From: an uncultured Ardenticatenia bacterium
GTDB taxonomy: Bacteria > Chloroflexota > Anaerolineae > 4572-78 > NAK82
Direction: 5' to 3'
Assembly: GCA_937127125.1 (NCBI GenBank)
Contig: CAKZLO010000034.1
Coordinates: forward strand, 17,257 to 81,256
DNA length: 64,000 bases
Positions within the stretch are counted from its first letter, which is position 1. Each line of letters begins with the position of its first letter. The translations under genes were made by a program, and so were the position numbers. Of this stretch, positions 30,312-63,211 are shown piece by piece. The notes beneath the pieces were generated by a model, which made no database searches, was not told the origin of the DNA, and saw only the letters and a program-made list of their open reading frames with translations.

Positions 30312-30340
30312 TTGACCATCTCTTAGCTCTGCGATATAGT
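30312..30340 (+). promoter_or_regulatory. Putative promoter of the aro operon (TTGACC-17-TATAGT)
   Basis: TTGACC at 30312-30317, a 17-nt spacer, and TATAGT at 30335-30340. GGGAGG (30355-30360) precedes ATG 30366. Confidence 0.45.
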
Positions 30341-30365
30341 GGCAGATGTCAAGTGGGAGGCATGT

Positions 30366-31670
30366 ATGCAGCTACGTGTGCGGTTTTCTTCCCCTTTGCG
30401 CGGGGAAGCTGTCGCACCAGGTGACAAATCCATTTCGCATCGTGCTCTGCTGCTGGGCGCTATTGCACAGGGCACCAGTGAGGTGCACGGCTGGCTTCCG
30501 GCGGCAGACTGTCAAGCGACGTTGAAAGCTGTGCGTGCGCTGGGTGCTACAGTGGAGCAACATACGCCTGTAAACTTGGTCGTTCATGGGTGTGGTCTTC
30601 GCGGGCTGCGGCCGCCTGGTACCCAGGCAGTGTTAGATTGTCAGGGTTCCGGCACCACTATGCGCTTACTGGCAGGCATTCTGGCAGGTTATCCGTCGAC
30701 GAGTGTGCTGGATGGTCATGCTGGCCTGCGGCGTCGACCAATGGAACGGGTCGCTGTGCCATTGCGTTTGATGGGTGCCCATGTGGAGACCACCGATGGG
30801 CGCCCACCAATCGCTGTGCGGGGAGGAATGCTGCGCGCTATCGATTATACATTGCCTGTCGCTAGCGCGCAGGTGAAGAGTGCCATTCTACTCGCAGCTC
30901 TGTATGCCACTGGAGAAACGATCGTGCACCAGCCGGGCCCGGCACGCGACCATACCGAACGCATGTTACGCGCGCAAGGCGTGAACATATTTCAATGTGA
31001 CAACAGTGTCCATCTGATATCAAGTGAACAACCACTTGCGCCGCTGCAAATAGTAGTACCTGCTGACTTTTCTTCGGCTGCTTTCATACTGGTCGCCGGC
31101 CTGCTGGTGCCAGGTTCGGAGATCCTCTTACGCCGGGTTAACGTGAACCCCACGCGCACTGGGCTTTTAGACGTGTTGCAAGCGATGGGTGCCCGCATCC
31201 AGATTGGAGAAGTGAGCGAACAAGGTGGCGAACCGGTCGCTGATCTTCTTGTCCGTCCGGCCGAAATCGAGGCTGGCCAAGTGACAGGCGAGCTGGTAGT
31301 CCGTATGATCGACGAGTTCCCTGTCTTCGCAGTGGCTGCCACTCAGGCACACGGCACCACAGTAGTGCGCGATGCCCAAGAGCTGCGCGTGAAGGAAAGT
31401 GATCGTATTGCTGCTGTCGCGACCGAACTCCGTAAGATGGGCGCCCGCATAGAGGAGCAACCTGATGGTTTCGTGGTGGAGGGTCCTACAACTCTACAGG
31501 GTGCGCACGTGGATAGCCATGGTGATCATCGGTTGGCTATGGCCTTAGTGGTGGCGGGTCTAATTGCCCGAGGAGAGACGGTGATCCATGGTAGTGAAGT
31601 GATCGGCGATAGCTTTCCGGACTTTGTGCCGGTGATGCGCCAGTTAGGCGCAGACATTGAGCAGGCTTAA
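30366..31670 (+). CDS. aroA: 3-phosphoshikimate 1-carboxyvinyltransferase (EPSP synthase)
   Basis: APGDKSISHRALLL, CQGSGTTMRLL, LRVKESDRI and DHRLAMA motifs. Confidence 0.9.
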   Translation: MQLRVRFSSPLRGEAVAPGDKSISHRALLLGAIAQGTSEVHGWLPAADCQATLKAVRALGATVEQHTPVNLVVHGCGLRGLRPPGTQAVLDCQGSGTTMRLLAGILAGYPSTSVLDGHAGLRRRPMERVAVPLRLMGAHVETTDGRPPIAVRGGMLRAIDYTLPVASAQVKSAILLAALYATGETIVHQPGPARDHTERMLRAQGVNIFQCDNSVHLISSEQPLAPLQIVVPADFSSAAFILVAGLLVPGSEILLRRVNVNPTRTGLLDVLQAMGARIQIGEVSEQGGEPVADLLVRPAEIEAGQVTGELVVRMIDEFPVFAVAATQAHGTTVVRDAQELRVKESDRIAAVATELRKMGARIEEQPDGFVVEGPTTLQGAHVDSHGDHRLAMALVVAGLIARGETVIHGSEVIGDSFPDFVPVMRQLGADIEQA

Positions 31671-31731
31671 CAAGAGTGGCCAGATGTTATGCGGTTTTGA
31701 CCGGGATGGATGGGATGAGGAGTGGTCTCAG

Positions 31732-32664
31732 ATGAGCCATGCACAGACGGGTGTGTCGGCTTTGCGCGTTTCGGGGCGCACCAAGTTGGTTGGTCTGTTG
31801 GGCTTGCCTGTGGAGCATAGCCTCAGCCCAGTGATGCATAACGCGGCCTTCGCTGCACTGGGCCTGGATTGGGTATACGTTCCCTTGCCAGTCTATCCGG
31901 ATCACCTCGGTGAGGCAGTGCGTGGTCTGCGTGCTATGGGCTTTGCTGGTGCAAACGTAACCGTGCCACATAAGCAAGCGGTGCTGCGTCATCTTGATGA
32001 CATTGCCGAGGATGCACTGGTGATTGGTGCCGTCAACACCATTGTGGTGCGTGACAATGATCTCTACGGTGACAACACCGATGCCAGCGGGTTCATAGCT
32101 GCCTTGGTGGAAGCAGGATTCGATCCGCGCGGTGTCTATGCGGCGGTGTTGGGGGCGGGAGGTGCAGCGCGTGCTGTGGTGCATGCCCTGGCCAACGCTG
32201 GTGCACGCCAGATATGTGTCTATAATCGACACGTGCAACGCGCTCAGGATCTATGCCGCGATATGGCACGCTTCCACACGGATGTGCGTTTTGAGGCTCA
32301 TTCGCTGGATGCTGTGTGCAACATTGATGAGGATACCAGTCTGTTGGTGAATGCCACTTCGCTGGGAATGTGGCCGGACACTGAAAGCTCCCCATGGCCC
32401 ACGGATCTGCCGATTCCTGCCCATTTGACGGTGTGCGATTTGGTTTACCGTCCGCTGGAAACATTATTTCTCACTCAGGCGCGTGCCGTGGGAGCAGAGA
32501 CCATTGGTGGCTTAGGAATGTTGGTTTATCAGGGCGCGGCAGCTTTCGAGATGTGGACTGGCCATTCGGCACCGGTGCATGTGATGCGGCAAGCTTGTCG
32601 TGAGTTCTTAGCTATAGCGGATCGAGCAGAAGCTAACGTGACGGAACAACAATGGGTCAGCTGA
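31732..32664 (+). CDS. aroE: Shikimate 5-dehydrogenase
   Basis: LVGLLGLPVEHSLSPVMHNAAF, NVTVPHK (catalytic Lys), GDNTDASGF (catalytic Asp) and LGAGGAARAV. The start is uncertain (31657, 31684 or 31732). Confidence 0.8.
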   Translation: MSHAQTGVSALRVSGRTKLVGLLGLPVEHSLSPVMHNAAFAALGLDWVYVPLPVYPDHLGEAVRGLRAMGFAGANVTVPHKQAVLRHLDDIAEDALVIGAVNTIVVRDNDLYGDNTDASGFIAALVEAGFDPRGVYAAVLGAGGAARAVVHALANAGARQICVYNRHVQRAQDLCRDMARFHTDVRFEAHSLDAVCNIDEDTSLLVNATSLGMWPDTESSPWPTDLPIPAHLTVCDLVYRPLETLFLTQARAVGAETIGGLGMLVYQGAAAFEMWTGHSAPVHVMRQACREFLAIADRAEANVTEQQWVS

Positions 32665-32714
32665 GAGGGCTGCAATAGACCGTTTGTCATTCGTGAGAAA
32701 GTGGTTAGACGAAA

Positions 32715-33920
32715 GTGTTACGTTTTCTGACTGCGGGTGAGTCGCACGGATCGGAACTGACCGCTATCTTGGAAGGTATTCCGGCCGGTCTACCTCTCTC
32801 GCCTGAGCATATTCAAGGGGATCTGCGTCGCCGCCAGAAGGGGTACGGCTCGGGCGGGCGTATGGGTATAGAGAAGGACACGGTGCGTCTCAGTGCTGGT
32901 GTGTTGGGTGGGTACACAACCGGTGCGCCAATTGCTTTGCACATCGCGAATCTGGATCATACACATTGGTGCGGACGTGAAATTGCTCCGATGACTATCC
33001 CGCGCCCCGGTCATGCTGACTTGACCGGAGCGATCAAGTATGGACTACGCGATCTGCGTCTGGCGTTGGAGCGTGCCAGTGCACGTGAAACCGCTGCGCG
33101 TGTGGCGGTAGGAGCAGTGTGCCGTCATCTGTTGAGCCAGTTTGACATCATCATCGGCAGCTATGTTGTCAGCATTGGAGATGTCACAGCTGCCTTGCCG
33201 ATGCCAGACAACGAGGTTGCCCATACCACCTATCTTGCGCGTTTTCAAGCTGCTGAGGCAAGTGAAGTGCGCTGTCCTGATCCAGAAGCAGCAAAGCGTA
33301 TGCACCAGGCAATCTGGGATGCTATGCAGGCCAAGGACACTTTGGGGGGGATCTTTGAGGTAGTTGCACTGGGTGTGCCCCCCGGACTTGGCTCTTATGT
33401 TCAGTGGGACCGTCGACTCAGCGCGCGGTTGCTGGCTGCCGTAGGAAGCATTCAGGCAGTGAAAGGAGCGGAAATCGGGCCCGCTTTCGAAAATGCCCGC
33501 TTGCCAGGCACGCAGGTGCATGATGAGATCTTGCTAAAAGCTGGGGATGGATCCTCCCAGCCAAATGAGCTAACTCGGCGTACAAACCGTGCTGGCGGGT
33601 TGGAGGGGGGCATCTCGACGGGGCTGCCCATTGTGGTGCGTGCTGCGATGAAACCTATTTCCACGACGCTCAAACCTTTGCGCTCAGTGGATTTGGCGAC
33701 TGGACAGCCAGCGGCTACACGATATGAACGTTCTGATTTTTGTGCTGTGCCTCGTGCAGCAGTAGTGGCTGAAGCTATGGTGGCTTTCGTTCTGGCGGAT
33801 GCCTTGATCGAGAAACTCGGCGGCGATAGTTTGGACGAGATGCGCACACGCTACGCCACTTTGCGCCGCGCGCGCCTCTCCGATCTTCCTATGGACAATG
33901 TTCCTTGGCAAATGTTCTGA
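32715..33920 (+). CDS. aroC: Chorismate synthase
   Basis: 401 aa with MLRFLTAGESHG, RPGHADL and ERASARETAARVA signatures. Confidence 0.95.
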   Translation: MLRFLTAGESHGSELTAILEGIPAGLPLSPEHIQGDLRRRQKGYGSGGRMGIEKDTVRLSAGVLGGYTTGAPIALHIANLDHTHWCGREIAPMTIPRPGHADLTGAIKYGLRDLRLALERASARETAARVAVGAVCRHLLSQFDIIIGSYVVSIGDVTAALPMPDNEVAHTTYLARFQAAEASEVRCPDPEAAKRMHQAIWDAMQAKDTLGGIFEVVALGVPPGLGSYVQWDRRLSARLLAAVGSIQAVKGAEIGPAFENARLPGTQVHDEILLKAGDGSSQPNELTRRTNRAGGLEGGISTGLPIVVRAAMKPISTTLKPLRSVDLATGQPAATRYERSDFCAVPRAAVVAEAMVAFVLADALIEKLGGDSLDEMRTRYATLRRARLSDLPMDNVPWQMF

Positions 33921-41339: not shown

Positions 41340-42536
41340 ATGAGAGCGTTTTGGCGGAGGTTTCTCGGGTCGATGGGAACAGGCTATGATCTTGTGCGAA
41401 CAGGATTTTGGTTGCGGCTCGCAAATATGGGTGAATGGCTGGCAGTGTCAGCCCTGGTTGTGCTGATAGTGTGTGCGCTGCCTGTTGCAAGTGCGACAGC
41501 ACAGAATGCGGTCGATAGCCACTTGGTCATCCAGACAGTCAGTGGCGGGGCAATTTATGCAGTGGATCTGGACATTACAGGTGACAACCCACGTAATCTG
41601 CGTTATCTGACGGATGGGATAGATGCTGCCCTCTCACCGGATGGGAGTCGAGTGGCATTTACCCGTTGGGATAACCCTTCTCTCGGTGCGTTGGGAAGCC
41701 TGTGGGCTGTCAGCGTAGATGGTACCAACGAGCGATTGATCGCCGATCAGCTGCGGCAGCCAAAGGCACCGATCTGGTCGCCTGATGGCAATCGCATTGT
41801 TCTTAATGTGCAGACGGGCGATCGGCTCAGGCCAGAGCGTAAGTGCAGTAGCGAGCTACCGAGTGCTCCCCTTCTGGCAGACGAGGACGGTGACTACATC
41901 CGCGTAGTGGTCGAGGTAGAAGAAGACGGTGAGGTTAAAGTAAAGTATTGTTATACTTTGTTGCCGCGTCCCTACTGGGGATTGGGTACTATTGACGTGA
42001 ACACCGGGGACTTCGCTGGTCTGCCGCACAGTCTCTTTTCGTATGTGGGAGACTGGGATCCTATCAATGCATGGCGATTAGTCTATCGCGGAGAGCGTGG
42101 GCTGGTGAATCTGGATGTCAATCGTGGAGCTTCTTGGCCGCTCACGGACGACGCCGCGGATCACACCCCTGTTTTTTCACCGGACGGTGCGTACATTGCT
42201 GTGACTTACTGGCAACACGACCATTGGGAAGTCCATCGGATCAATGCTGACGGCAGTGGACGTGTGCGTCTCACCGAGACTTCGCTGCGCGAACTGGCTG
42301 ATCAGCGTCTCGGTGGCAAGGAGCCGCGTTCTTGGAACAATGCTGCGCCGGCTTGGTCGCCGGATGGCCGTTATATAGCTTTCATAACAGATCGCGCCGG
42401 GCGTTGGGAGGTCTGGATAATGAATGCTGACGGCAGTAACCAGCGTCCTCTCCTGCCGCCGGAGATGCAATCTCAGCTTAACATCCGATACTTTGGTGTG
42501 GACGAACGCGTGCTCAGTTGGCGGCAGCGGCACTGA
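41340..42536 (+). CDS. TolB-like PD40/WD40 beta-propeller protein with N-terminal TM anchor
   Basis: Repeated SPDG(S/N/A/R)xxAF/VL motifs (LSPDGSRVAF, WSPDGNRIVL, FSPDGAYIAV, WSPDGRYIAF) and one N-terminal hydrophobic helix. Confidence 0.65.
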   Translation: MRAFWRRFLGSMGTGYDLVRTGFWLRLANMGEWLAVSALVVLIVCALPVASATAQNAVDSHLVIQTVSGGAIYAVDLDITGDNPRNLRYLTDGIDAALSPDGSRVAFTRWDNPSLGALGSLWAVSVDGTNERLIADQLRQPKAPIWSPDGNRIVLNVQTGDRLRPERKCSSELPSAPLLADEDGDYIRVVVEVEEDGEVKVKYCYTLLPRPYWGLGTIDVNTGDFAGLPHSLFSYVGDWDPINAWRLVYRGERGLVNLDVNRGASWPLTDDAADHTPVFSPDGAYIAVTYWQHDHWEVHRINADGSGRVRLTETSLRELADQRLGGKEPRSWNNAAPAWSPDGRYIAFITDRAGRWEVWIMNADGSNQRPLLPPEMQSQLNIRYFGVDERVLSWRQRH

Positions 42537-42656
42537 TGACCAAAAGAGGGCACGCCCACTTCTCCAATCTCAGCTGTGTGTCGAGCAGTGCTAAGTGAGC
42601 TTAGTCGCCGGACCTTTTTCGTCTCTAGCGAGGCTGCTCAGCTGCCGAAGAGGGTC

Positions 42657-43622
42657 TTACCGTCGCACTGCTTCAGCGATTTGTGCCAGCCGTTCGAAGA
42701 GTGGGCCCTCGATGGAAATGTGCAATACTTGTGCAATGACCTGCGTCCAGCCGTGCAGGAAATATAGCCAGCCGTCCTCCACGCGCACGTTGCGGCTTTC
42801 TCTCTGGGCGAGTGCTTGGTGCATAAAATCAAGTGTGCCGCGATAGTTCAGCTCCCAAGCAATCCCATTGCGCGGAAAGAGCCCTGCTTCTGTGATAGGC
42901 GATCCAGGCCGATCCTTACCCATACCAGTAGCGTTAATCACGATGCTACCATCCGGCATTGTAGCCATAATGGCGTCGTTCACACGTGGATCCTCATTGT
43001 GCACATACTCAAAGGCGATGTCAGTGTTGTGTCGGTTTACCATCTCGCGCAGATGATCCAGACGTGGGGTGGACCGATTGACCACCACAATTCGTCTGGG
43101 TCGGTCGTCTGCTTCCTGTTTATTGAGAAAATGCAGTACGATGGCGACAGCTGAGCCACCTGCGCCGAAACACAATACCTCTCCACCAGTACGTGCGAAA
43201 TAATTTTTACCCAGCATCGTGTCCAGACTCATCCCGGCGGTAATGGGATCCTTGGCGTGCCCTTCCAGCGCACCGTTACGCTTGGAAATGCACGAAACCT
43301 CGCTGCATATCTGGGCGTAGGGGTCCAGATAGTCGAACATATCATACGCCGCATTGAGTAGGTCGATCTTGTGGGTAGTGACCAGCGCTCCCAGTGAGAG
43401 GGGATCGTACTTGATCTGGGCTACTGCTTGACGGTAGGCTTCGCGTGTATCGTGGATCTGCAAATCGACCCCCTCAATAACGATCTCCGGCCGGCCCAAT
43501 TCCTTCATCCAGAGAGGAAAAACCTTCATGATAGAGGATTGCTTGGTGGTGACACCGATGAAATAGAAGGTTGGTACCTGTTTGGTAACCACCTCGTATT
43601 CGATCTGGGTAGCGTGTACCAT
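42657..43622 (-). CDS. Divergent shikimate/quinate-dehydrogenase-family protein (SDH-like paralogue)
   Basis: ATG 43622 lies 8 nt after AAGGAG. FYFIGVTTKQSSIMKVFPLW, VTTHK (Lys) and GHAKDPITAG (in place of canonical NTD) are followed by the Rossmann motif CFGAGGSAVA. Confidence 0.65.
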   Translation of the reverse strand: MVHATQIEYEVVTKQVPTFYFIGVTTKQSSIMKVFPLWMKELGRPEIVIEGVDLQIHDTREAYRQAVAQIKYDPLSLGALVTTHKIDLLNAAYDMFDYLDPYAQICSEVSCISKRNGALEGHAKDPITAGMSLDTMLGKNYFARTGGEVLCFGAGGSAVAIVLHFLNKQEADDRPRRIVVVNRSTPRLDHLREMVNRHNTDIAFEYVHNEDPRVNDAIMATMPDGSIVINATGMGKDRPGSPITEAGLFPRNGIAWELNYRGTLDFMHQALAQRESRNVRVEDGWLYFLHGWTQVIAQVLHISIEGPLFERLAQIAEAVRR

Positions 43623-43758
43623 CTTCTGCAGCTCCTTGAAAGAGAATAATACCCTGATTGTGTGTTGAGGCTCTATTATGGAAGAACGACAAGCTGGCAA
43701 TTCGTAGCGACTACAGTGACTGTTTAATAAGCAATGTGTCTGCCTTTTGGCCTTTGGG

Positions 43759-45204
43759 TCATGTCTCCATCCGGAAGAAATGCACAAGCTGTTTTAGTAT
43801 AATGCGTAGGTCACTTCGGAAGGGGTGGATACGTCGGCCAATCATATATCCCTTGAAAAGTTTGTAAATTAATCGATAGAGAGTGTCGCTAATTGGATTG
43901 TGGGGAACTTTAATGAGCAAGCGAATGAATGGTTCCAGCCATGGAAACTCGACACCCAACGCAAACCAACGCTGCAGGTTTTCCATTTGCAAGCGCTCGA
44001 ATGGATCACGCTTGATCAGTGATCTGTCCCAGGCAATTGCACTAATATCCTCCAAGCTACCATCCATTAGGTCATATTCTTGCACAAAGCTACCCAATTC
44101 TGTGCCAGGATACGGCTGGAAGAGAAAGGCGTGGGCATATTTGATCTTCGCCTCGCGGTTCAGCTGCATAGTAGCAAAGTCATCCTCCAGCGTAGCTGTG
44201 GGCAGTGCCAGCATATTGGTTGAGCTAACTGCGATGCCAAACTCATGCAATAGCCGACCAGCCTCCACGATAGCCTGCTGCGACATACGGCGTAACAGTA
44301 AGCCGTTGCGCAGCTGATCGTTAGCCGTTTCAATACCCATGCTGACCGACGTAGCTCCTGCTTTCTTGAGGAGTGCCACCTTTTCGCGTGTCACCAAGTT
44401 GGCACGCACATTGCAGAAAAATGCCACACCCACAGCGCTCGGCCATTTATCGGCAAACTCCTCCAGCCAGTCCTCAAACATAATGAAGAGATCATCCACA
44501 AAGATGATCTGCTCCAGTGGATAACGCGCTTTAACCCACAACGCTTCCTCGATAATGGCATCCACTGGACGCATATAGCCTCGTTTTTCCCTTGGGTAAT
44601 AATTCTTGTACCAAGCATGATTGAAGCAGTAAGTGCACCGGTATGGGCACCCGCGCCCGGCGATGAAAGCCTTAATAGGACGCAGCCGGGTGACTTCATC
44701 CTTGTTATAGATGAGCGCCCGATCAGGCATAGGCAGGCTGCCCAGATCACGAATCAACGGACGCACCGGATTTCGGACAACCTCGCCGTTGACTTTAAAC
44801 CACCAGTTGGCAATGTGAGGATTGAATCCTGGTCCATCCAACGCGTTTGCCAGATCGACGATGGCACCTTCTCCCTCGCCGATGCAAATTCCGTCCAGTC
44901 CATCCTCCATTAACACTTCTGGGAAGAACGTAGCATGTGGTCCCCCGAAGACAGAAATGGGTTCGCGGTCACCCAATGCGCGCTTGATTTTTCTGTTCAG
45001 CTCCAGATAGTAGCGCTGTGAGCCAGTCAGCACCGTGTAGGCCAAAATGTCAGGGCGAAAGGTCTGCGCAGCCCGAACAGCATCCTCCTGCGTAGCAATC
45101 GTCAATGCCACCTCATGACCGGCCTGTTTGAGCACCGATGAGAGGGACATCATGCCCTGTGGCTCGTAGTCGATCTGTTTTTCCACCCACAGAATGCGTG
45201 CCAT
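43759..45204 (-). CDS. B12-binding-domain radical SAM enzyme
   Basis: ~481 aa from ATG 45204 (AAGAGG upstream). The N-terminal cobalamin-binding-like domain has [10 protein letters not shown] and FGGPHATF. The radical-SAM motif is CPYRCTYC (44626-44649). Confidence 0.8.
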
Positions 45205-45347
45205 CTGGTCGCCTCTTTGTGGTGACCCCAATGATGCAGGGCATTGTAGTGCAGGCAAAGCAGAGTTGTCAACGCAACGAGACAGGGGTGCTGAGCGAGG
45301 CCTGGACGAGCGAAGAGAGGCCAAAGAAGCCAGAGGTTTAGTCTCTA

Positions 45348-46904
45348 CTACTCAGAAGGCGGTGACGGAAGAGCAACAAGCTGACTGAACACCTCGCCCA
45401 GCTCCTCTAACAGCGATGCGTACAGCTTCACAAAAGGTTGATAGAAGGCATGGTATTCTGAACGCGGTTCGATGCGTGCTGTCTCCTGCACAAATTGACG
45501 TGCGGTCGCCTTCAAGTCAGTGAAAACGCCGACCGCATAACCAGCCAGTATCGCTGCTCCTTGTACGGCGTACTCCTGACGATTTAGTTGCACGTATGGC
45601 ACACCTAGCACATCTGCCTTGATTTGATTCCATAGCTGGCTGGCAGCGCCGCCACCAATGACACGCACTTCCTTGAAGTGCAACTCTGGCAACAGAGATT
45701 TCTCAATCGCCATATAGGTAGCGTACTCAAAAGCGACCGCCTCAAGCATCGCGCGATAGAGGTGTGCCTTGGTATGACTCCAGGTAAAGCCCAGCCACAG
45801 GCCTCGCAGGTCAGGACGACTCGGACATACACTTCCCCCAAGATGGGGCAAAAAAACGAGCGAGTCGCAGCCAGCAGGCACACGAGATGCTGCTTCATTC
45901 AGCAACTCGTAAACGCTGCGTCCTTGTGCGGCTGCTTGCTCTTTCTCCTCGCGTGCCATCTCATCGCGAAACCAGCGCAAATTGAGACCACCCCCGTTGA
46001 TGTAGCCCAAAGCATACCAGAGGTCAGGAGGAACCAGATGTGCTGTGAACAACGTTTTATGCTGCACGTCTGGCACATAGCGGTCTGTGCATATTGAAAA
46101 GACAGAGGCAGTGCCAGCTACATCCAGGGCGATGCCCGGTTCCACCATTGCAGCTCCTAACAATCCAGCAGCTTGGTCGCCGCATCCAGCGGCGATAGGC
46201 GTACCCGCAAGCAAGCCACAATCGCGTGCAGCATCCTTGGTAACCCGACCGACGAGCTCCCAAGGAGAGACGATGCGCGGCAGCTTTTCTGGTGATACGT
46301 CAAATAGGGAGACCAGCTCAGCATCCCATGTACACCTGACCGTGTCGCAGAACGAGGCAAAGTTAAGATGGGTGTAATCGATATAAGCTTCATCGCCTTT
46401 GAGGCCAGCCATCCGCCCAGCCACATAACATACCGGCACCACGAATTTGTGTATACGGGCAAACACCTCCGGTCGCTCGTGTTTCCACCACAAGATTTTG
46501 GGTCCGTGGCAGTAACTGGGCGGCCCCCCGGTACGTTCTATTATGAGGTCAGCGTGGGGTTTCATTAATTCGATGTAAGGCTTGCAGCGCGTGTCCAACC
46601 ATGAGTCGTAGGGCGTGGGAGTGTTCCAATCAGCATCCACGGTGCCAATGCCGGCCATCTGTCCGTCAAAAGCAATTGCTGCTACATCGCGTGGTTGGAT
46701 ACCACTCCTTCCCAAACATTCCCGGATGGTGCGCACGGAGGCAGCGTAGAAGTCATTTGGATCCTGTTCCACCCACCCTGGACGTGGATAGTATAGAGTG
46801 GATTCTTCATAGGCGCTGGCAATCAGGTTGCCAGACACGTCGAAAATGGCTGCCTTGGTGCCGGCTGTGCCCAGGTCTACTCCAATGAGATATGGTGCAC
46901 CCAT
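45348..46904 (-). CDS. FGGY-family carbohydrate kinase (xylulokinase-like)
   Basis: 518 aa with the N-terminus [18 protein letters not shown], followed by GCGDQAAG and VIGGGAAS motifs. Confidence 0.85.
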
Positions 46905-47020
46905 TGCATGAATCCTCCGTGATTTTGGCTGTACCTTGTCCTTATGCCAGCTTCCTTGGGCAACTGCTTGTTGAGAGGCTGAAGGAGAGCTCGCTCAGGA
47001 TCAGGATGTTCACTGAAACA

Positions 47021-47956
47021 TTACCTCTCCATGAACTGTTCGATGTCCTTACTGGGCAAGCCGTAGTGTGATACTAGAGCATCCAGTACTGCACGCAAAT
47101 CAGCAGGGAGTGGTGCCTCCAGCGAAAGCTGTACTCCCGAAGGGTGTTCAAAGGAAATCTGCCATGCGTGCAGAAACTGGCGTGGCATGGGCACCTGCTC
47201 GCGCCGGCGACCGTACACCCGATCACCTGCCACTGGTATGCCTAACCATGCCAGGTGCACACGAATCTGATGTGTACGCCCTGTCTCCGGCGTCACGCAG
47301 AGCAGAGTATACTCGCCCAGTGTGGTTAGCTGCTGATAAGCGGTACGCGCTGCACGGCCTCCTGGGATGACCGCCATGCGCTGGCGCCGGCGCGGATCAC
47401 GCCCTACTGGCGCCTCGATAATCCCATATGGTGTTGGTGGACGCCCGTGAACCAAGGCTAGGTAGCGCTTCTGAACTCGGTGTTGCTTAAACTGTGCACG
47501 TAGGTGTTCCAACGTTCGCTCTGTCTTGGCGACAATAAGCAGGCCAGAGGTATCGCGGTCGAGACGGTGGACGATCCCAGGACGGTTCGTATCATCTGTC
47601 GCCAGAGCGGGACAGTGAGCCAACAGTGCGTTAACTAGGGTATTATGGGTGTGACCAGCTCCGGGATGCACCACCACCCCGGCTGGTTTGGCAACCACCA
47701 ACAGGTCAGAGTCTTCATAGATAATTTCCAGGGGGGATGGTCGGGCAATGGGTGGTGCCTCGGGAGAAGTCTGAGGAATGCGCAGCGTGACATGCATACC
47801 CGCCTCGACCAGCATACCCGGCTTGCTCGGTCGTCCATCAACTGTGACCAGACCGGCGCGGATAAGTTGCTGAATACGTGAGCGCGAAAGCTGGGATAGC
47901 ATGCGCGTCAGATACCGATCGAGCCGTTCACCCGAGTGTTCAATTGTCAACTGCAT
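47021..47956 (-). CDS. rluD: RluA-family 23S rRNA pseudouridine synthase (RluD-like)
   Basis: An S4 domain (RLDRYL...SRSRIQQLI) is followed by the catalytic HRLDRDTSGLL and THQIRVHL. Confidence 0.85.
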   Translation of the reverse strand: MQLTIEHSGERLDRYLTRMLSQLSRSRIQQLIRAGLVTVDGRPSKPGMLVEAGMHVTLRIPQTSPEAPPIARPSPLEIIYEDSDLLVVAKPAGVVVHPGAGHTHNTLVNALLAHCPALATDDTNRPGIVHRLDRDTSGLLIVAKTERTLEHLRAQFKQHRVQKRYLALVHGRPPTPYGIIEAPVGRDPRRRQRMAVIPGGRAARTAYQQLTTLGEYTLLCVTPETGRTHQIRVHLAWLGIPVAGDRVYGRRREQVPMPRQFLHAWQISFEHPSGVQLSLEAPLPADLRAVLDALVSHYGLPSKDIEQFMER

Positions 47957-48011
47957 GACCTGATGGCCCTGCACGAAAAGACGTCACCCAATCCAGACGA
48001 GTTAGCTAAGA

Positions 48012-48305
48012 TTATTTATTTGTGTCTTTCCCAGAATCACCCACCCCGGCGACACGTGCCAACATGTGACGCATCACACCGGATTGAGAGCCTCCAGCAT
48101 TGCGATAAGCTCGCTGGCGCTGCAGGAGATGGTGAGTCCTGAGCAAACGGCGCAAACGAGAAAGGCCAGATGCTGGCTGTGCGCGCAACCAGCGGCCGAG
48201 AAGGGCAGCATGAACCCCGGGACGTGTCCAACTGCGACGTGCTAGCTCTGCAATTTTCTCCAAGGTGTTCAAGACGGTGGGATCACCTATGTCCTGTTCG
48301 TTCAT
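48012..48305 (-). CDS. Hypothetical Arg-rich 97-aa protein, ATGA-coupled to lspA
   Basis: An ORF fills the lspA-rluD gap, and its ATG at 48305 overlaps the lspA stop. I recognise no motif, and high GC could generate it by chance. Confidence 0.3.
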   Translation of the reverse strand: MNEQDIGDPTVLNTLEKIAELARRSWTRPGVHAALLGRWLRAQPASGLSRLRRLLRTHHLLQRQRAYRNAGGSQSGVMRHMLARVAGVGDSGKDTNK

Positions 48306-48856
48306 GATTGTGCCTCCCCATCCACCCGACTGCGCTCGCTGCTGGCCTTCCCTCGTTCCATATGTTCTATACGCCACAGTCGGTATACGATCAGAAGTAT
48401 CCCGATTGTAATCGAAGCGTCCGCGAGGTTGAAGATAGGCCAGAAACTGATGTCAATGAAGTCGATTACATACCCCAGACGTAGACGGTCGAGCAGATTG
48501 CCAATTGCTCCACCCAGCTGCAATCCCAAGCTGATTCGGATGAGCCAGTCTCCGGCGGGCAGCTGACGATAGTAGACCACAATAGCTATTACGACGGCCA
48601 CTGCGATCAGAATGAAAAGATTGCCCTGATTAGGCAATATACCAAATGCTGCACCGCTGTTGGTGGTATGAGTAATGCGGAAGAGGTCTCCCAGCTCGCC
48701 CGGCAAAGGGCTCCACCAATGTCCTTCAGGCAGCGATGCCACTACCCAGGATTTACTGAGCTGATCTAGGCCGACAACGGTGACCGCAAGCAAGGCTAAC
48801 AGCAAGAAAGGCAAACTTCCCTTCCAACTTGTTGTGCGAGCAAGTGGGTTTGCCAT
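48302..48856 (-). CDS. lspA: Lipoprotein signal peptidase II
   Basis: LDQLSK, NSGAAFG and IFNLADASI (catalytic Asp region), with 4 TM segments. The start is taken at ATG 48856. Confidence 0.85.
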   Translation of the reverse strand: MANPLARTTSWKGSLPFLLLALLAVTVVGLDQLSKSWVVASLPEGHWWSPLPGELGDLFRITHTTNSGAAFGILPNQGNLFILIAVAVVIAIVVYYRQLPAGDWLIRISLGLQLGGAIGNLLDRLRLGYVIDFIDISFWPIFNLADASITIGILLIVYRLWRIEHMERGKASSERSRVDGEAQS

Positions 48857-48986
48857 ATCTCTGTCCTCCAAATATCGCTTATGGATTGTAATGCACGTGC
48901 AAGGAGGGTGCAAGGATGGTCGAAGTCGGATGGTAAGTGCACATTCTAGCGCTTCTTTAGCTAGCGTTTGGGGCAGGCTCCTTCGC

Positions 48987-49640
48987 CTACAGGCATTCGG
49001 TCCGTTTCAATGTCAAGGTTTCACATTCAGCCTGAAAAGACAACTGACTACAAAAAGATTGCCAATCCTCAGGGGTGTCTAGGTCGAATGCCAGAGTCGG
49101 GGTTCGCAGAACGGTAGGCCGAACACCAATCAAGCGCGCAGAGGCCAGATGGCGGGGAAAGCTCGCTGGTCCGAATGCGAACGGAATAAGCAACGGCGGT
49201 CGCATCAGCAGTGCATTTGTCCCTATGCTTCGTCGACACGGAGCGATAACCACGGCAGGCGCATCAGTTGCTAGGCGTAGCAACGTTTGTACATCCCTAT
49301 CCGTAAGAAAGGGCAGATCGGTTGGCAGTACCAGAATTCCATCGGCACCACAAGCAGATGCAAAGTGACTTGCTTGTGTGAGCGCAGCGTTCAGATCACT
49401 ACCCTCTTCTTTCAATGGCAAGCCTCCTCCCATTTGTGTGTCCTTGAGCACCCGCGGATCACGGCTGATCACCACTACGCGGGCAAAGTGACGTCGCGTC
49501 AGACGTAGCACGCGGCTGAGCAACCAACGGCTCAGCCACATGCGTTGGGTAACATTGAGACAGGCCGCTAGGCGCGTTTTTGCCTCTTGGTAAGGCTTGC
49601 ATGGCACAATGCACACAATGGAGACAGATCCACTGGGCAT
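48987..49640 (-). CDS. cofC: 2-phospho-L-lactate guanylyltransferase (F420 biosynthesis, CofC/FbiD-like)
   Basis: IVPCKPYQEAKTRLA, LPTDLPFL and GTNALL patterns of the CofC family. It lies immediately downstream of cofD. Confidence 0.65.
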   Translation of the reverse strand: MPSGSVSIVCIVPCKPYQEAKTRLAACLNVTQRMWLSRWLLSRVLRLTRRHFARVVVISRDPRVLKDTQMGGGLPLKEEGSDLNAALTQASHFASACGADGILVLPTDLPFLTDRDVQTLLRLATDAPAVVIAPCRRSIGTNALLMRPPLLIPFAFGPASFPRHLASARLIGVRPTVLRTPTLAFDLDTPEDWQSFCSQLSFQAECETLTLKRTECL

Positions 49641-49647
49641 ATGCTGA

Positions 49648-50661
49648 TCAACCTTGCAGGGCAAATTGGAGGATTTCGCGTGCTAGGCGCGCACGATCTG
49701 GTTCGTCGCGCATTATGATGTCAGTTGCCAGGGTACGGATACCCATCTGCTCAGCAATCACAGCAGCGCACGGAACATCCTGACGGTCAAGCACAAAGCC
49801 GGTGAGTAGATCACGATAGTGTGCCGCGACTGTCACAGGTGAAGCTTCCATGTTCAGCTCGTTCATCATCTTGGCAGCAGGTCCTTTAAGGGCCCGTCCT
49901 GCCACAATGGGAGAGATGGCGATGCGTGGCGCACGCACAGTGCTCAGGATACGTCGCATTGCTGGCAACGCGAGAATAGGGTCCAAGCTGACGAACGGGT
50001 TGGAGGGTCCAAACAAGATCACATCGGCGTTGCGCAGCGCACTGACTACCTCTCGTGTAGGCTGTGCTTGCTCAATCCCCTCAAAGCGGACACCCTTTAT
50101 CCTTGGCTGCCATGCGTAGCGCACGAAATACTCTTGGAAGGCTATTTCCCCATTTTCTGTAAGTACTCGTGTATGGACTGGATCGTCGCTCATCGGCAGT
50201 ATCGTCTGAGGCACACCCAGCAGCCAACACAATTGACGGGTGACCCAAGTGAGCGGAAATCCCTCGCGCAACCATTGGCTACGCAACAAATGGGTGGCCA
50301 GATCGCGATCGCCCAAGCGAAACCAAGTGGGTGCTTCGTAACAAGCCAGCATGGCGAGCGTATTCCACGTGTCATCTTTTATACCCCAGCCGGTCTCAGG
50401 GTTCACCAGGCCGGCGAGCGTGTACATCACTGTATCCAGGTCCGGCGAGATATGCAGTCCCAGATGTTCAAAGTCATCGGCGGTGTTGACCACGAATGTC
50501 AAACGTTCCGGAGGCAACAACTGTGCTAATCCGGAGGCCAGCTTGGCGCCACCTACTCCTCCGAGCAATGCCACAATATTAACTTCAGGGAGCTCGGAGT
50601 TAACAACTTGCGCAATTGAAGTGTCTTGTCTCTCTTCTTCGTGGTGTACTGCTGCATCCAT
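49648..50661 (-). CDS. cofD: 2-phospho-L-lactate transferase (F420 biosynthesis)
   Basis: 337 aa with LLGGVGGAKLA, NTADDFEHLGLHISPDLD and GPSNPFVS motifs. Confidence 0.85.
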   Translation of the reverse strand: MDAAVHHEEERQDTSIAQVVNSELPEVNIVALLGGVGGAKLASGLAQLLPPERLTFVVNTADDFEHLGLHISPDLDTVMYTLAGLVNPETGWGIKDDTWNTLAMLACYEAPTWFRLGDRDLATHLLRSQWLREGFPLTWVTRQLCWLLGVPQTILPMSDDPVHTRVLTENGEIAFQEYFVRYAWQPRIKGVRFEGIEQAQPTREVVSALRNADVILFGPSNPFVSLDPILALPAMRRILSTVRAPRIAISPIVAGRALKGPAAKMMNELNMEASPVTVAAHYRDLLTGFVLDRQDVPCAAVIAEQMGIRTLATDIIMRDEPDRARLAREILQFALQG

Positions 50662-62182: not shown

Positions 62183-63211
62183 GTGAAAGCTATATTTGCC
62201 AAGAAGCCGTTTAATTTCGACATCCGCGAGCTGGACATCCCCAAACCCGATGAGGGGGAGGTCCTGGTCAAGATACATGCCTGTGGCCTATGCGGCACCG
62301 ATATGCATTTCGCTCAGGACTGGGAAGAGGATTTTATGCCACTGGGCCATGAGATTGCTGCTGAGGTGGTTGAGCTTGGCAGGGGGGTCACCAGCTATAG
62401 AGTCGGTGACAAAGTCATCGTGGAAGACGTGGGAATGTGTGGCGTCTGTGAGCATTGCAAGAACGGCGAGTCCTACCGCTGCCGTAACAACTACAACCTG
62501 AAGGGCCAGCCCGGTATGGCCGAGTATATGGCGGTGAGCGAGCATCTGCTGAACCGCTTCGATGGGATGGATTACGTGACCGCCTCGTTGACGGAGCCGC
62601 TGGCCGTGGCGCTCAACACAGTGCTGCACAGCGAGATACCCTTGGGGGGCAATGTGGTGGTGTATGGCCCCGGTCCTATCGGACTGATGTGTGTGCGCGT
62701 TGCTCGTCTGCAAGGTGCCGCCAAAGTAGCTCTGGTCGGGTACTCGGCCCAAAGCCCGCGCGAGGTAGCACGTATGAACGCGGGTGCTGCACTCGGAGCC
62801 GACTATCTGATCTATGCGGCGGACAATGACCCGGTGGAGAAGGTGCGTTCGATATTCCCGGGTGGTGCGGATCGCGTGATCGTCACCTCGCCGCCCAAGA
62901 CGTTACCTTCTGCTGTGAAGATGACCGCTTTCGGGGGCATTGTCTCATTCATCGGCATTAATCTGGGTGGGCAGAGCACTGTCGAACTGGACGTAAATGA
63001 GCTGATTTTCAACAAGGTGACCTTGCGACCCACTTTTGCTGAGCCAGGCATCAAGTTTCCGGTTTCCATTCGTCTGCTCCGAGAAGGCCTGGTGGATGCC
63101 TCGAAGCTGATCACCCATACATTCGGCTTCGCCGATGCCGAGCGCATCTTCCGCATGAACGCTGACGGCAACGAGAAGGTCATCAAGGCTGTGTTGGTGC
63201 CCGGCGCATAG
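62183..63211 (+). CDS. Zinc-dependent medium-chain alcohol/polyol dehydrogenase (threonine/sorbitol-dehydrogenase-like)
   Basis: 342 aa with the catalytic Zn ligands CGLCGTDMH and GHEIAAEV, the structural Zn site CGVCEHCKNGESYRC, and the NAD fold VVYGPGPIGL. Confidence 0.85.
   Translation: MKAIFAKKPFNFDIRELDIPKPDEGEVLVKIHACGLCGTDMHFAQDWEEDFMPLGHEIAAEVVELGRGVTSYRVGDKVIVEDVGMCGVCEHCKNGESYRCRNNYNLKGQPGMAEYMAVSEHLLNRFDGMDYVTASLTEPLAVALNTVLHSEIPLGGNVVVYGPGPIGLMCVRVARLQGAAKVALVGYSAQSPREVARMNAGAALGADYLIYAADNDPVEKVRSIFPGGADRVIVTSPPKTLPSAVKMTAFGGIVSFIGINLGGQSTVELDVNELIFNKVTLRPTFAEPGIKFPVSIRLLREGLVDASKLITHTFGFADAERIFRMNADGNEKVIKAVLVPGA

What the first reader, a model, noticed from the sequence alone, without database searches (positions are those of the whole stretch)
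42657..46904. Uncharacterised co-directional cluster: FGGY sugar kinase, B12-binding radical SAM enzyme, divergent shikimate-dehydrogenase-like protein
**Seen in the sequence.** Three consecutive minus-strand genes are separated by gaps of ~140 nt.
- The first is an FGGY kinase.
- The second is a ~481-aa enzyme with an N-terminal cobalamin-binding-like domain and CPYRCTYC (44626-44649).
- The third is a 322-aa SDH-family protein. It keeps the catalytic Lys (VTTHK) but has AKD where the canonical AroE in this same window (31732-32664) has NTD.

**Established knowledge.**
- B12-radical-SAM enzymes carry out methylations and rearrangements on unactivated carbons.
- SDH-like paralogues act on quinate, aminoshikimate or unknown cyclitols.

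**Inference.** This may be a pathway that phosphorylates, radical-modifies and oxidises or reduces a sugar or cyclitol. I cannot match it to a described pathway.
Basis: partly seen in the sequence, partly recalled or inferred. Interest (0 to 1): 0.65.

Follow-up and report, generated by a model that had tools for sequence, protein, structure and literature searches.

The report
Operon remnant plus unrelated radical-SAM gene
The three neighbouring genes are real and intact, but comparison with about 170 related loci shows they are not one pathway: the kinase and the dehydrogenase are the two ends of a widespread, uncharacterised sugar-breakdown operon, and an unrelated radical-SAM gene with its own promoter now sits between them.

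Summary
Three intact minus-strand genes are present: an FGGY kinase (45348-46904), a B12-domain radical SAM enzyme (RS, 43759-45204, CPYRCTYC at 44626-44649) and a very divergent shikimate-dehydrogenase (SDH)-fold protein (42657-43622, 321 aa). The spacers are 143 and 136 nt.

- Of 80 species genomes carrying the SDH-like gene, 2 have the RS within 10 kb. Both belong to the ~90 %-identical sister clade.
- Of 80 RS loci, none has an FGGY kinase, and only the 2 sister-clade loci have the SDH-like gene.
- In sister genomes the kinase block and the RS/SDH-like block lie at different loci. Collinearity breaks inside the 143-nt kinase-RS spacer.
- That spacer carries a promoter-like block (TTGACAAC…GCACTAnAAT) conserved in all relatives despite differing upstream genes.

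The kinase and the SDH-like gene are linked elsewhere. In 45 of 80 genomes they bracket an operon: kinase, IolG-like dehydrogenase, Zn-ADH, PTE-family (phosphotriesterase-type) lactonase, cupin isomerase, D-2-hydroxyacid dehydrogenase, KDPG aldolase, SDH-like.

The RS belongs to an orphan family, found mainly in Chloroflexota, with no conserved neighbours. Interest is modest. The two uncharacterised families are leads, but the cluster is not a unit.

The parts
45348..46904 (-). FGGY-family sugar kinase, 518 aa. It belongs to a xylulokinase/gluconokinase-like subfamily, called 'FGGY_a' here, that heads or tails the conserved SDH-like operon in other Anaerolineae.
   Evidence: Pfam FGGY_N and FGGY_C. 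XylB 281 bits (cut-off 380) and GntK_FGGY 237 bits. It is 72-73 % identical to the kinases in SDH-like operons L012, L017 and L019, and 47-53 % identical to about 40 others. In sister genome Nak82 the orthologue keeps the same upstream block (CofD-CofC-LspA-RluD) but a different downstream one.
45205..45347 (-). The 143-nt kinase-RS spacer, which is a synteny breakpoint. No terminator-like hairpin was found in it.
   Evidence: By tblastx, collinearity with the sister kinase contig L177 ends at about 45336. Collinearity with sister RS contigs L006, L015, L016 and L095 begins at about 45204-45300. The terminator scan finds nothing in the spacer.
45243..45272 (-). Sigma-70-type promoter-like site upstream of the RS gene: TTGACA, 18 nt, TACAAT. 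The -10 hexamer ends 38 nt before the RS ATG.
   Evidence: It matches 11 of 12 consensus positions. It is one of only three sites with at least 11 of 12 matches on both strands of the 64-kb window. The block TTGACAAC…GCACTAnAAT is invariant in all 6 clade members, although the sequence further upstream is unrelated between them and synonymous sites are saturated. The extended pattern is unique in the window, with 0.01 matches expected by chance.
43759..45204 (-). Class-B-type radical SAM enzyme, 481 aa. It has an N-terminal B12-binding-like Rossmann domain (44851-45171), a radical SAM core (44182-44661), a CxxxCxxC motif at 44626-44649 and a helical C-terminal domain. It belongs to an orphan family found mainly in Chloroflexota.
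   Evidence: Pfam. No NCBIfam model comes near its cut-off: the best are HpnJ at 88 of 578 bits and BchE at 83 of 481. By sequence, PDB hits are AprD4 at 1.7e-10 and CysS at 1e-6. The AlphaFold model has pLDDT 88, and Foldseek ranks AprD4, MgmA, TsrM, CysS, OxsB and TokK highest at 14-17 % identity. There are 2286 homologues at E<=1e-10 among the 8000 candidates scored, at 57-60 % identity in MAGs (metagenome-assembled genomes) labelled Anaerolineae, Caldilineae or Chloroflexi. Neighbours are not conserved, apart from paralogous RS copies.
43623..43758 (-). The 136-nt RS to SDH-like spacer, with the RBS AAGGAG at 43632-43637. It holds about 114 nt that are absent from sister genomes, where the spacer is about 22 nt.
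   Evidence: Sequence. Alignment with L006, L015, L016 and L095. No promoter-like or terminator-like site lies within the spacer. A weaker 10-of-12 promoter-like site lies inside the RS 3' end at 43841-43868. Rfam finds nothing.
42657..43622 (-). Divergent SDH-fold NAD(P)-dependent dehydrogenase, 321 aa. It keeps catalytic Lys85 (43368-43370), Asp125 (43248-43250), G153AGGS157 and VNRS. The canonical shikimate-binding Asn and Thr residues are replaced (GANVTVPHK becomes GALV-TTHK; NTD becomes AKD).
   Evidence: The family profile hits only 1322 of 1.84 billion cluster representatives at E<=1e-3. In 84 other loci it is typically the last gene of the operon kinase / GFO-IDH-MocA / Zn-ADH / PTE / cupin / 2-Hacid_dh / KDPG-aldolase / SDH-like.

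Best explanation
The three genes do not form a three-step pathway.

**Kinase and SDH-like protein.** In most Anaerolineae these are the first and last enzymes of a conserved catabolic operon of about eight genes. The order is: [GntR regulator], FGGY kinase, IolG-like GFO/IDH/MocA dehydrogenase, Zn-dependent alcohol/polyol dehydrogenase (IolM/Tdh-like), PTE-family lactonase/hydrolase, cupin phosphosugar isomerase (PF06560), D-2-hydroxyacid dehydrogenase (PGDH/GhrB-like), KDPG/KHG aldolase (Eda), SDH-like dehydrogenase.

The following is inferred, not shown. The operon takes a hexose, polyol or cyclitol through NAD(P)-dependent oxidation, then lactone or ring hydrolysis, keto-acid reduction and ATP-dependent phosphorylation. 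It ends in an Eda-type aldol cleavage to pyruvate plus a triose.

The SDH-like enzyme would carry out one of the hydride transfers. It would use the conserved Lys85/Asp125 dyad and probably NADP(H), given the VNRS motif. Its pocket has lost the shikimate-binding Asn residues and gained an invariant Lys124, which suits an anionic sugar acid or sugar phosphate.

**This lineage.** Here the middle of the operon is absent from the locus and from the whole 64-kb window. A B12-domain radical SAM gene with its own promoter lies between the kinase and the SDH-like gene.
- The nearest outgroup locus (L017) has kinase-GFO-cupin-SDH-like in the corresponding arrangement.
- The SDH-like gene is now most probably expressed as the second cistron of an RS/SDH-like transcript.
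- The kinase-RS junction is a rearrangement breakpoint among sister genomes.

**The RS.** It belongs to an orphan family, found mainly in Chloroflexota, whose members sit in unrelated contexts, often beside a paralogue. Its substrate is therefore most likely unrelated to this sugar pathway. I infer a general modification reaction and cannot say which.
For: **Synteny counts.**
- 2 of 80 SDH-like genome loci have the RS. Both are ~90 % sisters.
- 45 of 80 have an FGGY_a kinase within 10 kb, or 35 of 52 when both flanks are complete.
- Among 80 RS loci, 0 have any FGGY kinase and 2 have the SDH-like gene, both sisters.
- RS homologues at 57-79 % identity sit in unrelated contexts.

**Operon reconstruction.** Among the 84 SDH-like loci clustered, 73 of which had the SDH-like ORF itself recovered as such, 2-Hacid_dh occurs in 60, cupin in 56, GFO in 44, kinase in 43, aldolase in 41, Zn-ADH in 39 and PTE in 37. 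Almost all are on the same strand and in a fixed order. Eda passes its NCBIfam cut-off (206 bits against 156).

**Fusions.** A 661-aa protein fuses 2-Hacid_dh to the SDH-like domain, and another carries a cupin fragment plus the SDH-like domain. None is fused to a radical SAM domain.

**Breakpoint.** In sister genome Nak82, CofD-CofC-LspA-RluD-kinase lies on contig QEXY01000162 and RS/SDH-like/PD40/SBP/UDP-glucose dehydrogenase on QEXY01000118. The tblastx blocks end on either side of the 143-nt spacer.

**Promoter.** An 11-of-12 site, conserved in all six relatives across four different upstream sequences.

**SDH-like protein.** The fold and the catalytic dyad are supported.

**Window content.** None of the other operon genes is in the window.
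Against: - No terminator is predicted between the kinase and the RS, so read-through co-transcription of all three genes cannot be excluded.
- RS/SDH-like adjacency, with a 22-nt spacer in sisters, persists across a clade whose synonymous sites are saturated. This could reflect functional coupling rather than inertia, although the downstream 12 kb is equally collinear.
- The kinase in this clade is embedded in a housekeeping block (RluD, LspA, CofCD) rather than among sugar genes.
- Whether the rest of the operon exists elsewhere in this genome could not be checked.
- The operon's substrate is a guess. No member of the SDH-like clade or of the RS family has been characterised.
- Promoter calls rest on an E. 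coli-type consensus applied to a Chloroflexota genome.
Confidence: 0.66

Rival explanations
1. Clade-specific two-gene module. In this genus-level clade the RS and the SDH-like enzyme have become a functional pair transcribed from the RS promoter. One possibility is a radical SAM diol dehydratase or oxidase plus an NAD(P)H reductase that deoxygenates or epimerises a sugar or cyclitol. This would be analogous to AprD4/AprD3. The kinase would be incidental.
For: - RS and SDH-like genes are adjacent in all clade members sampled (window, L006/L007, L015, L016, L095/L096), with a 22-nt spacer and GGAG RBS in the sisters. There is one conserved promoter ahead of the RS, and three or four different upstream contexts.
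- Both genes are under strong purifying selection.
- The RS's best solved-structure match by both sequence and fold is AprD4. AprD4 works with an NADPH-dependent reductase partner (PMC5461906).
- The RS occupies the position held by GFO-cupin in the outgroup L017.
Against: - The pairing is absent from every RS homologue at 79 % identity or below and from every SDH-like homologue at 78 % or below. It therefore amounts to one evolutionary event.
- The 12 kb downstream is just as collinear, so the adjacency is no more conserved than background synteny.
- The RS family keeps 57-60 % identity in MAGs labelled as other Chloroflexota classes (Caldilineae, Chloroflexi) without the partner, which argues for a partner-independent function.
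- The AprD4 NCBIfam score is 40 bits against a cut-off of 500, and HpnJ and BchE score higher.
Confidence: 0.15
2. All three adjacencies are accidental. The kinase is a housekeeping pentulose kinase tied to the RluD-LspA-CofCD block, and its position near the SDH-like gene is the chance result of a rearrangement.
For: In both the window and sister Nak82 the kinase is collinear with CofD-CofC-LspA-RluD, not with sugar genes. The breakpoint lies between the kinase and the RS. The kinase scores highest on XylB.
Against: The kinase is 72-73 % identical to kinases that sit inside SDH-like operons (L012, L017, L019), and those loci's SDH-like proteins are 71-78 % identical to the window's. This matched divergence fits co-inheritance. 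A random rearrangement placing this particular kinase subfamily within 1.6 kb of the SDH-like gene would be improbable. A more XylB-like second kinase ('FGGY_b', 352 bits) exists in many of these loci.
Confidence: 0.12
3. One reading: one three-enzyme pathway in which a sugar or cyclitol is phosphorylated by the kinase, radically methylated or rearranged by the RS, and oxidised or reduced by the SDH-like enzyme.
For: The genes are co-directional, with no predicted terminators in the two spacers. All three are intact and under purifying selection. None belongs to a characterised equivalog family.
Against: - The trio exists only in this one lineage. Among 80 SDH-like loci, 80 RS loci and 16 further loci fetched around individual RS and SDH-like homologues (L001-L014, L175-L176), no other instance of the trio was found.
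- Even ~90 % sisters split the kinase from the RS.
- The RS has a conserved promoter-like block of its own.
Confidence: 0.05

Closest known systems
Shikimate/quinate dehydrogenase superfamily (AroE, YdiB, SdhL/HI0607, quinate DH, 5-ketofructose reductase)
   Same: It has the same two-domain fold over its full length (Foldseek E about 1e-15, TM 0.65-0.8 relative to the targets). The catalytic Lys and Asp align. It has the GAGGS glycine loop, an NRS motif after the second beta-strand and an NATGMG motif. 5-Ketofructose reductase shows that the fold can act on sugars (PDB 7cok; PMC7954740).
   Different: Identity is only 15-20 %. It falls below every Pfam and NCBIfam SDH cut-off, and Pfam Shikimate_dh_N is not detected at all. 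The substrate-contact Asn residues are replaced (N to L; NT to AK). It is 30-50 residues longer. It forms a small discrete clade of 391 cluster representatives at E<=1e-30. It is embedded in a sugar-acid operon rather than in aromatic metabolism. The window has a separate canonical aroE within aroA-aroE-aroC.
Class B (cobalamin-domain) radical SAM enzymes: AprD4, MgmA, TsrM, CysS, OxsB, TokK; by HMM HpnJ and BchE
   Same: It has an N-terminal Rossmann B12-binding-like domain, a TIM-barrel radical SAM core with CxxxCxxC and a helical C-terminal domain.
   Different: Identity to any solved member is 14-17 %. The best NCBIfam scores are 88 bits (HpnJ, cut-off 578) and 83 bits (BchE, cut-off 481). 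There is no hopanoid, bacteriochlorophyll, aminoglycoside or RiPP context. Neighbours are unconserved, apart from tandem paralogues. Cobalamin use is unproven. From my own knowledge, AprD4's equivalent domain does not use B12.
Thermotoga-type oxidative inositol pathway (IolG, IolM, IolN, IolO, then the hexuronate/KDG route) and the E. coli L-idonate/5-ketogluconate (GntII) route. Both comparisons rest on my own knowledge, not on tests made here.
   Same: The conserved operon around the SDH-like gene contains an IolG-like dehydrogenase (261 bits, cut-off 355), an IolM/Tdh-like Zn-ADH (181 bits), a hydrolase, keto-acid reductases, a GntK/XylB-like FGGY kinase and Eda. Accessory IolE-like TIM-barrel genes occur in some loci.
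   Different: No component reaches an equivalog cut-off except Eda and DeoC. The hydrolase is PTE-family rather than IolN. No dehydratase (Edd, UxuA or IolE proper) is in the core. None of these known pathways includes an SDH-fold enzyme or a PF06560 cupin.
AprD4/AprD3 radical SAM diol dehydratase plus NADPH-dependent reductase pair
   Same: A radical SAM enzyme with an N-terminal B12-like domain is followed by an NAD(P)-dependent reductase gene. AprD4 is the top PDB match of the RS. The pair's chemistry is described in PMC5461906.
   Different: The AprD4 family score is 40 bits against a cut-off of 500. No aminoglycoside genes are present. The pairing is restricted to one clade.

Membership tests
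Shikimate dehydrogenase family (AroE/YdiB-type) | Two-domain SDH fold: an N-terminal substrate domain plus a Rossmann domain | tested here: met
   The AlphaFold model has pLDDT 85. The top 50 Foldseek PDB hits are all SDH, YdiB, quinate dehydrogenase, HI0607 or 5-ketofructose reductase, at E 1e-15 to 1e-12.
Shikimate dehydrogenase family (AroE/YdiB-type) | Catalytic Lys/Asp dyad | tested here: met
   Lys85 (VTTHK) and Asp125 (AKD) are invariant in 15 family members (whose numbering is +1). They align with the K and D of the window's own AroE by hhalign.
Shikimate dehydrogenase family (AroE/YdiB-type) | Shikimate/quinate-binding polar residues: the Asn of NVTxPxK and the Asn-Thr of NTD | tested here: not met
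   GANVTVPHK becomes GALV-TTHK, and GDNTD becomes GHAKD. The role of these residues in shikimate binding is from my own knowledge of AroE structures.
Shikimate dehydrogenase family (AroE/YdiB-type) | Score above the curated family thresholds | tested here: not met
   TIGR00507 scores 44.3 bits against 200.2. PF01488 scores 18.1 bits against 24.3. PF08501 is not detected. All 120 closest homologues carry no precomputed Pfam domain.
Class B (B12-binding domain) radical SAM | CxxxCxxC cluster motif within a Radical_SAM core | tested here: met
   C186, C190 and C193 lie at 44626-44649 and are invariant in 18 homologues. PF04055 scores 72.6 bits against 29.5.
Class B (B12-binding domain) radical SAM | N-terminal B12-binding (PF02310) domain | tested here: met
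   It scores 61.5 bits against 32.1 over residues 12-118. The fold matches TsrM, OxsB, TokK and CysS.
Class B (B12-binding domain) radical SAM | Actual cobalamin binding or use | not testable with these tools
   This needs cofactor analysis of purified protein.
Any characterised B12-rSAM equivalog (HpnJ, BchE, HpnR, AprD4, BzaD, MgmA and others) | Score above the equivalog cut-off | tested here: not met
   The best is HpnJ at 87.9 bits against 577.6. All 22 hits are far below their cut-offs.
FGGY carbohydrate kinases | FGGY_N plus FGGY_C domains | tested here: met
   154.6 and 95.1 bits.
Xylulokinase XylB (equivalog) | Score above the TIGR01312 cut-off | tested here: not met
   281 bits against 380.25.
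Three-gene functional cluster or operon (the finding's claim) | Conserved synteny of all three genes in related genomes | tested here: not met
   No other trio was found in 80 SDH-like loci and 80 RS loci. Sisters at ~90 % identity separate the kinase from the RS.
Three-gene functional cluster or operon (the finding's claim) | A single transcription unit | tested here: inconclusive
   A conserved promoter-like block lies ahead of the RS, but no terminator is predicted after the kinase. This needs RNA data.
Conserved Anaerolineae kinase-to-SDH-like catabolic operon (defined here) | Presence of the GFO, Zn-ADH, PTE, cupin, 2-Hacid_dh and KDPG-aldolase genes between or beside the kinase and the SDH-like gene | tested here: not met
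   tblastn of the operon representatives against the window finds only the kinase and the SDH-like gene, plus an unrelated Zn-ADH at 62183-63211 with 31 % identity. The locus is therefore at most a remnant of that operon.

The most novel reading that the evidence does not exclude
In this clade the orphan B12-domain radical SAM enzyme has been recruited in place of the IolG-like dehydrogenase and cupin isomerase of the ancestral operon. It would work with the SDH-fold reductase, and possibly the kinase, as an AprD4/AprD3-like or BtrN-like radical route. That route would deoxygenate or oxidise a sugar or cyclitol in primary catabolism. It would be the first radical SAM/SDH-fold enzyme pair and would give a functional handle on a large orphan rSAM family found mainly in Chloroflexota.
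Probability: 0.08. Interest if true: 0.7.

Novelty: new variant of a known kind. Interest (0 to 1): 0.3.

Why it matters
As a "radical sugar pathway" the cluster does not hold up, so it should not be pursued as a unit. Three by-products are useful.

1. **A new SDH-fold clade.** It is discrete and highly conserved, with a Lys/Asp dyad and an AKD motif, and no Pfam or NCBIfam model captures it. It closes a conserved eight-gene sugar or cyclitol operon across Anaerolineae and in a few MAGs labelled as other phyla. The operon is uncharacterised as far as the family models and three literature searches show. To my knowledge this clade lies outside the five described SDH classes. It is a tractable target for enzyme and pathway discovery.
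2. **An orphan rSAM family.** This B12-domain family, found mainly in Chloroflexota (over 2000 homologues, often as tandem paralogues), has no functional assignment.
3. **A caution about method.** Co-directional adjacency with short spacers was misleading here. The decisive evidence was synteny beyond the immediate clade, together with the conserved promoter block.

Tried and rejected
- **Riboswitch or other RNA in the spacers.** Rfam in E-value mode over 42300-47300 found nothing. A cobalamin riboswitch ahead of the RS is therefore rejected.
- **Terminators.** None was predicted in either spacer, so independent transcription could not be argued from terminators.
- **Conserved partners of the RS.** I clustered 843 neighbouring ORFs from 90 RS loci. 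Only RS paralogues recur. RtcB-like genes appear in 7 loci and HesB/IscA-like genes in 5, too few to build on.
- **Literature.** Searches for the operon combination, for B12-rSAM enzymes in Anaerolineae or Chloroflexi, for the IolM/IolN pathway and for SDH class nomenclature returned nothing usable. Only the 5-ketofructose reductase paper and the AprD4/AprD3 paper could be cited.
- **dN/dS as a test of relic status.** All three genes are strongly constrained, but dS is saturated, so the ratios are only upper-bound indications.
- **The rest of the operon elsewhere in this genome.** This could not be checked.
- **RS as BchE, HpnJ or AprD4.** Rejected on scores and context.
- **SDH-like protein as a second AroE or YdiB.** Rejected because the binding residues are lost and the genomic context is sugar catabolism.

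Full report
**1. What is in the sequence**

The region 42657-46904 holds three consecutive minus-strand ORFs.
- With the most plausible starts they are an FGGY kinase (45348-46904, 518 aa), a radical SAM protein (RS, 43759-45204, 481 aa) and an SDH-like protein (42657-43622).
Its ATG at 43622 follows AAGGAG at 43637-43632.
- The spacers are 143 and 136 nt.

Domain and family assignments (Pfam; NCBIfam):
- The kinase has FGGY_N and FGGY_C domains.
- The RS has a B12-binding domain (residues 12-118) and a Radical_SAM core (residues 182-341). C186PYRC190TYC193 falls at 44626-44649.
- The SDH-like protein gives only a sub-threshold Shikimate_DH hit.
- NCBIfam places none of the three in an equivalog. 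The kinase scores 281 bits on XylB (cut-off 380). The RS scores 88 bits on HpnJ (cut-off 578). The SDH-like protein scores 44 bits on aroE (cut-off 200).

A canonical aroE with NVTVPHK and GDNTD sits inside an aroA-aroE-aroC cluster at 30339-33920.

**2. The SDH-like protein is a real but remote SDH-fold enzyme**

- Sequence searches of the PDB find only 5-ketofructose reductase and an archaeal AroE, at E about 1e-3 to 1e-5.
- An AlphaFold model (pLDDT 85) superposes full-length on SDH, YdiB, quinate dehydrogenase, HI0607 and 5-ketofructose reductase. Foldseek E is about 1e-15 and identity 15-20 %.
- In 15 family members Lys85, Asp125, GAGGS, VNRS and NATGMGKD are invariant (whose numbering is +1).
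- hhalign against the window's AroE aligns the Lys and the Asp. It also shows GANVTVPHK becoming GALV-TTHK, and NTD becoming AKD.
- A profile of the family hits only 1322 of 1.84 billion cluster representatives at E<=1e-3, and 391 at E<=1e-30. The clade is small and discrete.

SDH-fold enzymes acting on sugars have precedent in 5-ketofructose reductase (PMC7954740).

**3. The radical SAM protein belongs to an orphan family**

- It has 2286 homologues at E<=1e-10 among the 8000 candidates scored. Identity stays at 57-60 % in MAGs labelled Anaerolineae, Caldilineae or Chloroflexi.
- The model (pLDDT 88) matches AprD4, MgmA, TsrM, CysS, OxsB and TokK at 14-17 % identity. By sequence AprD4 is best, at 1.7e-10.
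- No characterised family claims it.

**4. Synteny**

*Individual RS loci.*
- Contexts of RS homologues at 57-60 % identity, 69 % and 78-79 % are all different. None holds an SDH-like or FGGY gene.
- Only the ~90 % relative has the SDH-like gene downstream. There a LacI gene, not a kinase, lies upstream.

*Systematic scans.* These gave 80 species-representative genome loci around the SDH-like gene and 80 metagenome loci around the RS. tblastn with the three window proteins gave:
- RS within 10 kb of the SDH-like gene in 2 of 80 loci, both ~90 % sisters.
- An FGGY kinase at 44 % identity or more in 45 of 80 loci, or 35 of 52 with complete flanks.
- Among the RS loci, the SDH-like gene in 2 of 80 (both sisters) and an FGGY kinase in 0 of 80.

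*Neighbour clustering.*
- RS loci share only RS paralogues. 15 of the 80 metagenome loci have a second copy at 40 % identity or more.
- SDH-like loci reveal a fixed, co-directional operon: [GntR], FGGY kinase, GFO/IDH/MocA, Zn-ADH, PTE-family hydrolase, PF06560 cupin, D-2-hydroxyacid dehydrogenase, KDPG/KHG aldolase, SDH-like.
- In some genomes the kinase instead lies immediately after the SDH-like gene.

*Family searches on the operon members.*

| Operon gene | Closest family | Score (cut-off) |
|---|---|---|
| GFO/IDH/MocA | IolG | 261 bits (355) |
| Zn-ADH | Tdh / IolM | 196 / 181 bits |
| Hydrolase | phospho-furanose lactonase | 88 bits |
| 2-hydroxyacid dehydrogenase | PGDH/GhrB-like | 255 bits on PGDH |
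| Aldolase | Eda | 206 bits (156), passes |

*Fusions and window content.*
- A 661-aa protein fuses 2-Hacid_dh to the SDH-like domain, and another carries a cupin fragment plus the SDH-like domain.
- None of the other operon genes is in the 64-kb window.

**5. The kinase-RS junction is a breakpoint with a conserved promoter**

- In sister genome Nak82 the kinase orthologue lies in the same block as here (CofD-CofC-LspA-RluD-kinase) but is followed by unrelated genes.
- That genome's RS/SDH-like pair is on another contig, with the same downstream block as here: PD40, SBP_bac_5 and UDP-glucose dehydrogenase.
- tblastx shows the sister RS contigs collinear with the window from the RS start down to about 32.8 kb. 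The sister kinase contig is collinear from 50.6 kb down to the kinase stop. Both blocks end in the 143-nt spacer.
- That spacer holds TTGACA-18-TACAAT. It is one of only three sites in the whole window that match at least 11 of 12 consensus positions.
- Aligning the RS upstream regions of six clade members shows the block TTGACAAC…GCACTAnAAT to be invariant. Everything further upstream is unalignable between contexts. Synonymous sites between these genomes are saturated.
- In the sisters the RS to SDH-like spacer is about 22 nt with a GGAG RBS. The window carries about 114 extra nt.
- No terminator-like hairpin lies in either spacer, and there is no Rfam match.

**6. Interpretation**

- The kinase and the SDH-like protein are the two ends of a conserved but experimentally uncharacterised sugar, polyol or cyclitol operon.
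- The nearest outgroup locus (L017) reads kinase-GFO-cupin-SDH-like-DeoC. There the SDH-like protein is 78 % and the kinase 73 % identical to the window's.
- In the window's lineage the interior genes are gone from the locus. An RS gene with its own promoter sits there, and the SDH-like gene is most likely expressed as its second cistron.
- The RS family's indifference to context elsewhere argues that its function is unrelated to this pathway.

I commit to this reading at about 0.66.

The chemistry proposed for the operon is inference from family memberships. It would run: oxidation, lactone or ring hydrolysis, keto-acid reduction, phosphorylation, then Eda-type cleavage. The SDH-like enzyme would act as an NADP(H)-dependent keto-sugar, keto-acid or inosose reductase whose Lys124 binds an anionic group.

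**7. Rivals**

- **A clade-specific RS/SDH-like functional pair, about 0.15.** It would be analogous to AprD4/AprD3 (PMC5461906). It is favoured by the tight spacing in the sisters and the shared promoter. It is weakened because the pairing is a single evolutionary event and is no better conserved than the flanking 12 kb.
- **Wholly accidental adjacency, including the kinase, about 0.12.**
- **The original three-step pathway, about 0.05.** It fails its own synteny criterion.

**8. Novelty and interest**

- The cluster as a unit is not a feature. The SDH-like clade with its operon, and the orphan RS family, are uncharacterised variants of known kinds.
- A specialist would find the outcome unsurprising but would value the operon as an enzyme-discovery lead.
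- Overall interest is 0.3.

Noticed in passing
L012, L017, L021, L023, L043, L060, L089, L093 and about 40 further loci (SDH-like gene at about 10001-10940 in each): A conserved, apparently uncharacterised operon of about eight genes occurs in Anaerolineae and in a few MAGs labelled Acidobacteriota or Actinomycetota. The order is FGGY kinase, IolG-like GFO/IDH/MocA, Zn-ADH, PTE-family lactonase, PF06560 cupin, D-2-hydroxyacid dehydrogenase, Eda aldolase, SDH-like. Accessory genes include GntR, a second XylB-like kinase, DeoC, IolE-like TIM barrels and a 437-aa protein with no Pfam or NCBIfam match.
   Followed up: partly
P0270 (661 aa), P0341, P0322: Natural fusion proteins join the SDH-like domain to a D-2-hydroxyacid dehydrogenase (full length), to a cupin-GPI fragment or to a ROK-family domain. 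The first is Rosetta-stone support for coupling to the operon's 2-Hacid_dh. Some of these may be gene-calling artefacts.
   Followed up: partly
L123, L127-L129, L131, L140, L141, L147, L151; also L002 10001-19757: The RS family often occurs as tandem paralogue pairs at 45-53 % identity. One Chloroflexi MAG (L002) has the RS followed by two more B12-rSAM genes and a fourth radical SAM gene, interleaved with DUF2203, CpsB/CapC-like and Uma2 genes. This suggests a multi-step radical modification system. RtcB-like genes precede the RS in 7 loci.
   Followed up: no
window 43623-43758: The RS to SDH-like spacer contains about 114 nt that sister genomes lack (their spacer is about 22 nt). The first ~10 codons of the SDH-like gene also differ from the sisters (MVHATQIEYE against MEQE…). 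The origin of the insertion is unknown, and it has no Rfam match.
   Followed up: partly
window 30339-33920 (+): A canonical aroA (EPSP synthase), aroE, aroC (chorismate synthase) cluster. This confirms that the genome has a dedicated shikimate dehydrogenase separate from the SDH-like gene.
   Followed up: partly
window 47021-50661 (-): A housekeeping block lies upstream of the kinase: an RluD-type pseudouridine synthase, a small ORF, LspA signal peptidase II, and CofC and CofD (F420 biosynthesis). It is collinear with sister genome contig QEXY01000162 (L177).
   Followed up: partly
L006 267-7801; L007: In one sister lineage the RS is preceded by a LacI-family regulator. This is divergent from an operon encoding an SBP_bac_8 ABC sugar transporter, a PTE-family hydrolase and URO-D. 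A PTE-family gene therefore lies near the RS/SDH-like pair there, although the canonical operon is absent.
   Followed up: no
window 60004 (+) and 58710 (+): These are the only other sigma-70-type sites in the window matching at least 11 of 12 positions: TTGACA-17-TATAAT (12 of 12) and TTGACC-16-TATAAT.
   Followed up: no
window about 42.5 kb: Cumulative GC skew rises steadily up to about 42 kb and then flattens or declines. This coincides with the switch from plus-strand to minus-strand genes at the convergent PD40 / SDH-like junction.
   Followed up: no
window 8764-16241 (+): Two very large adjacent ORFs of 1602 aa and 890 aa. They were not examined.
   Followed up: no
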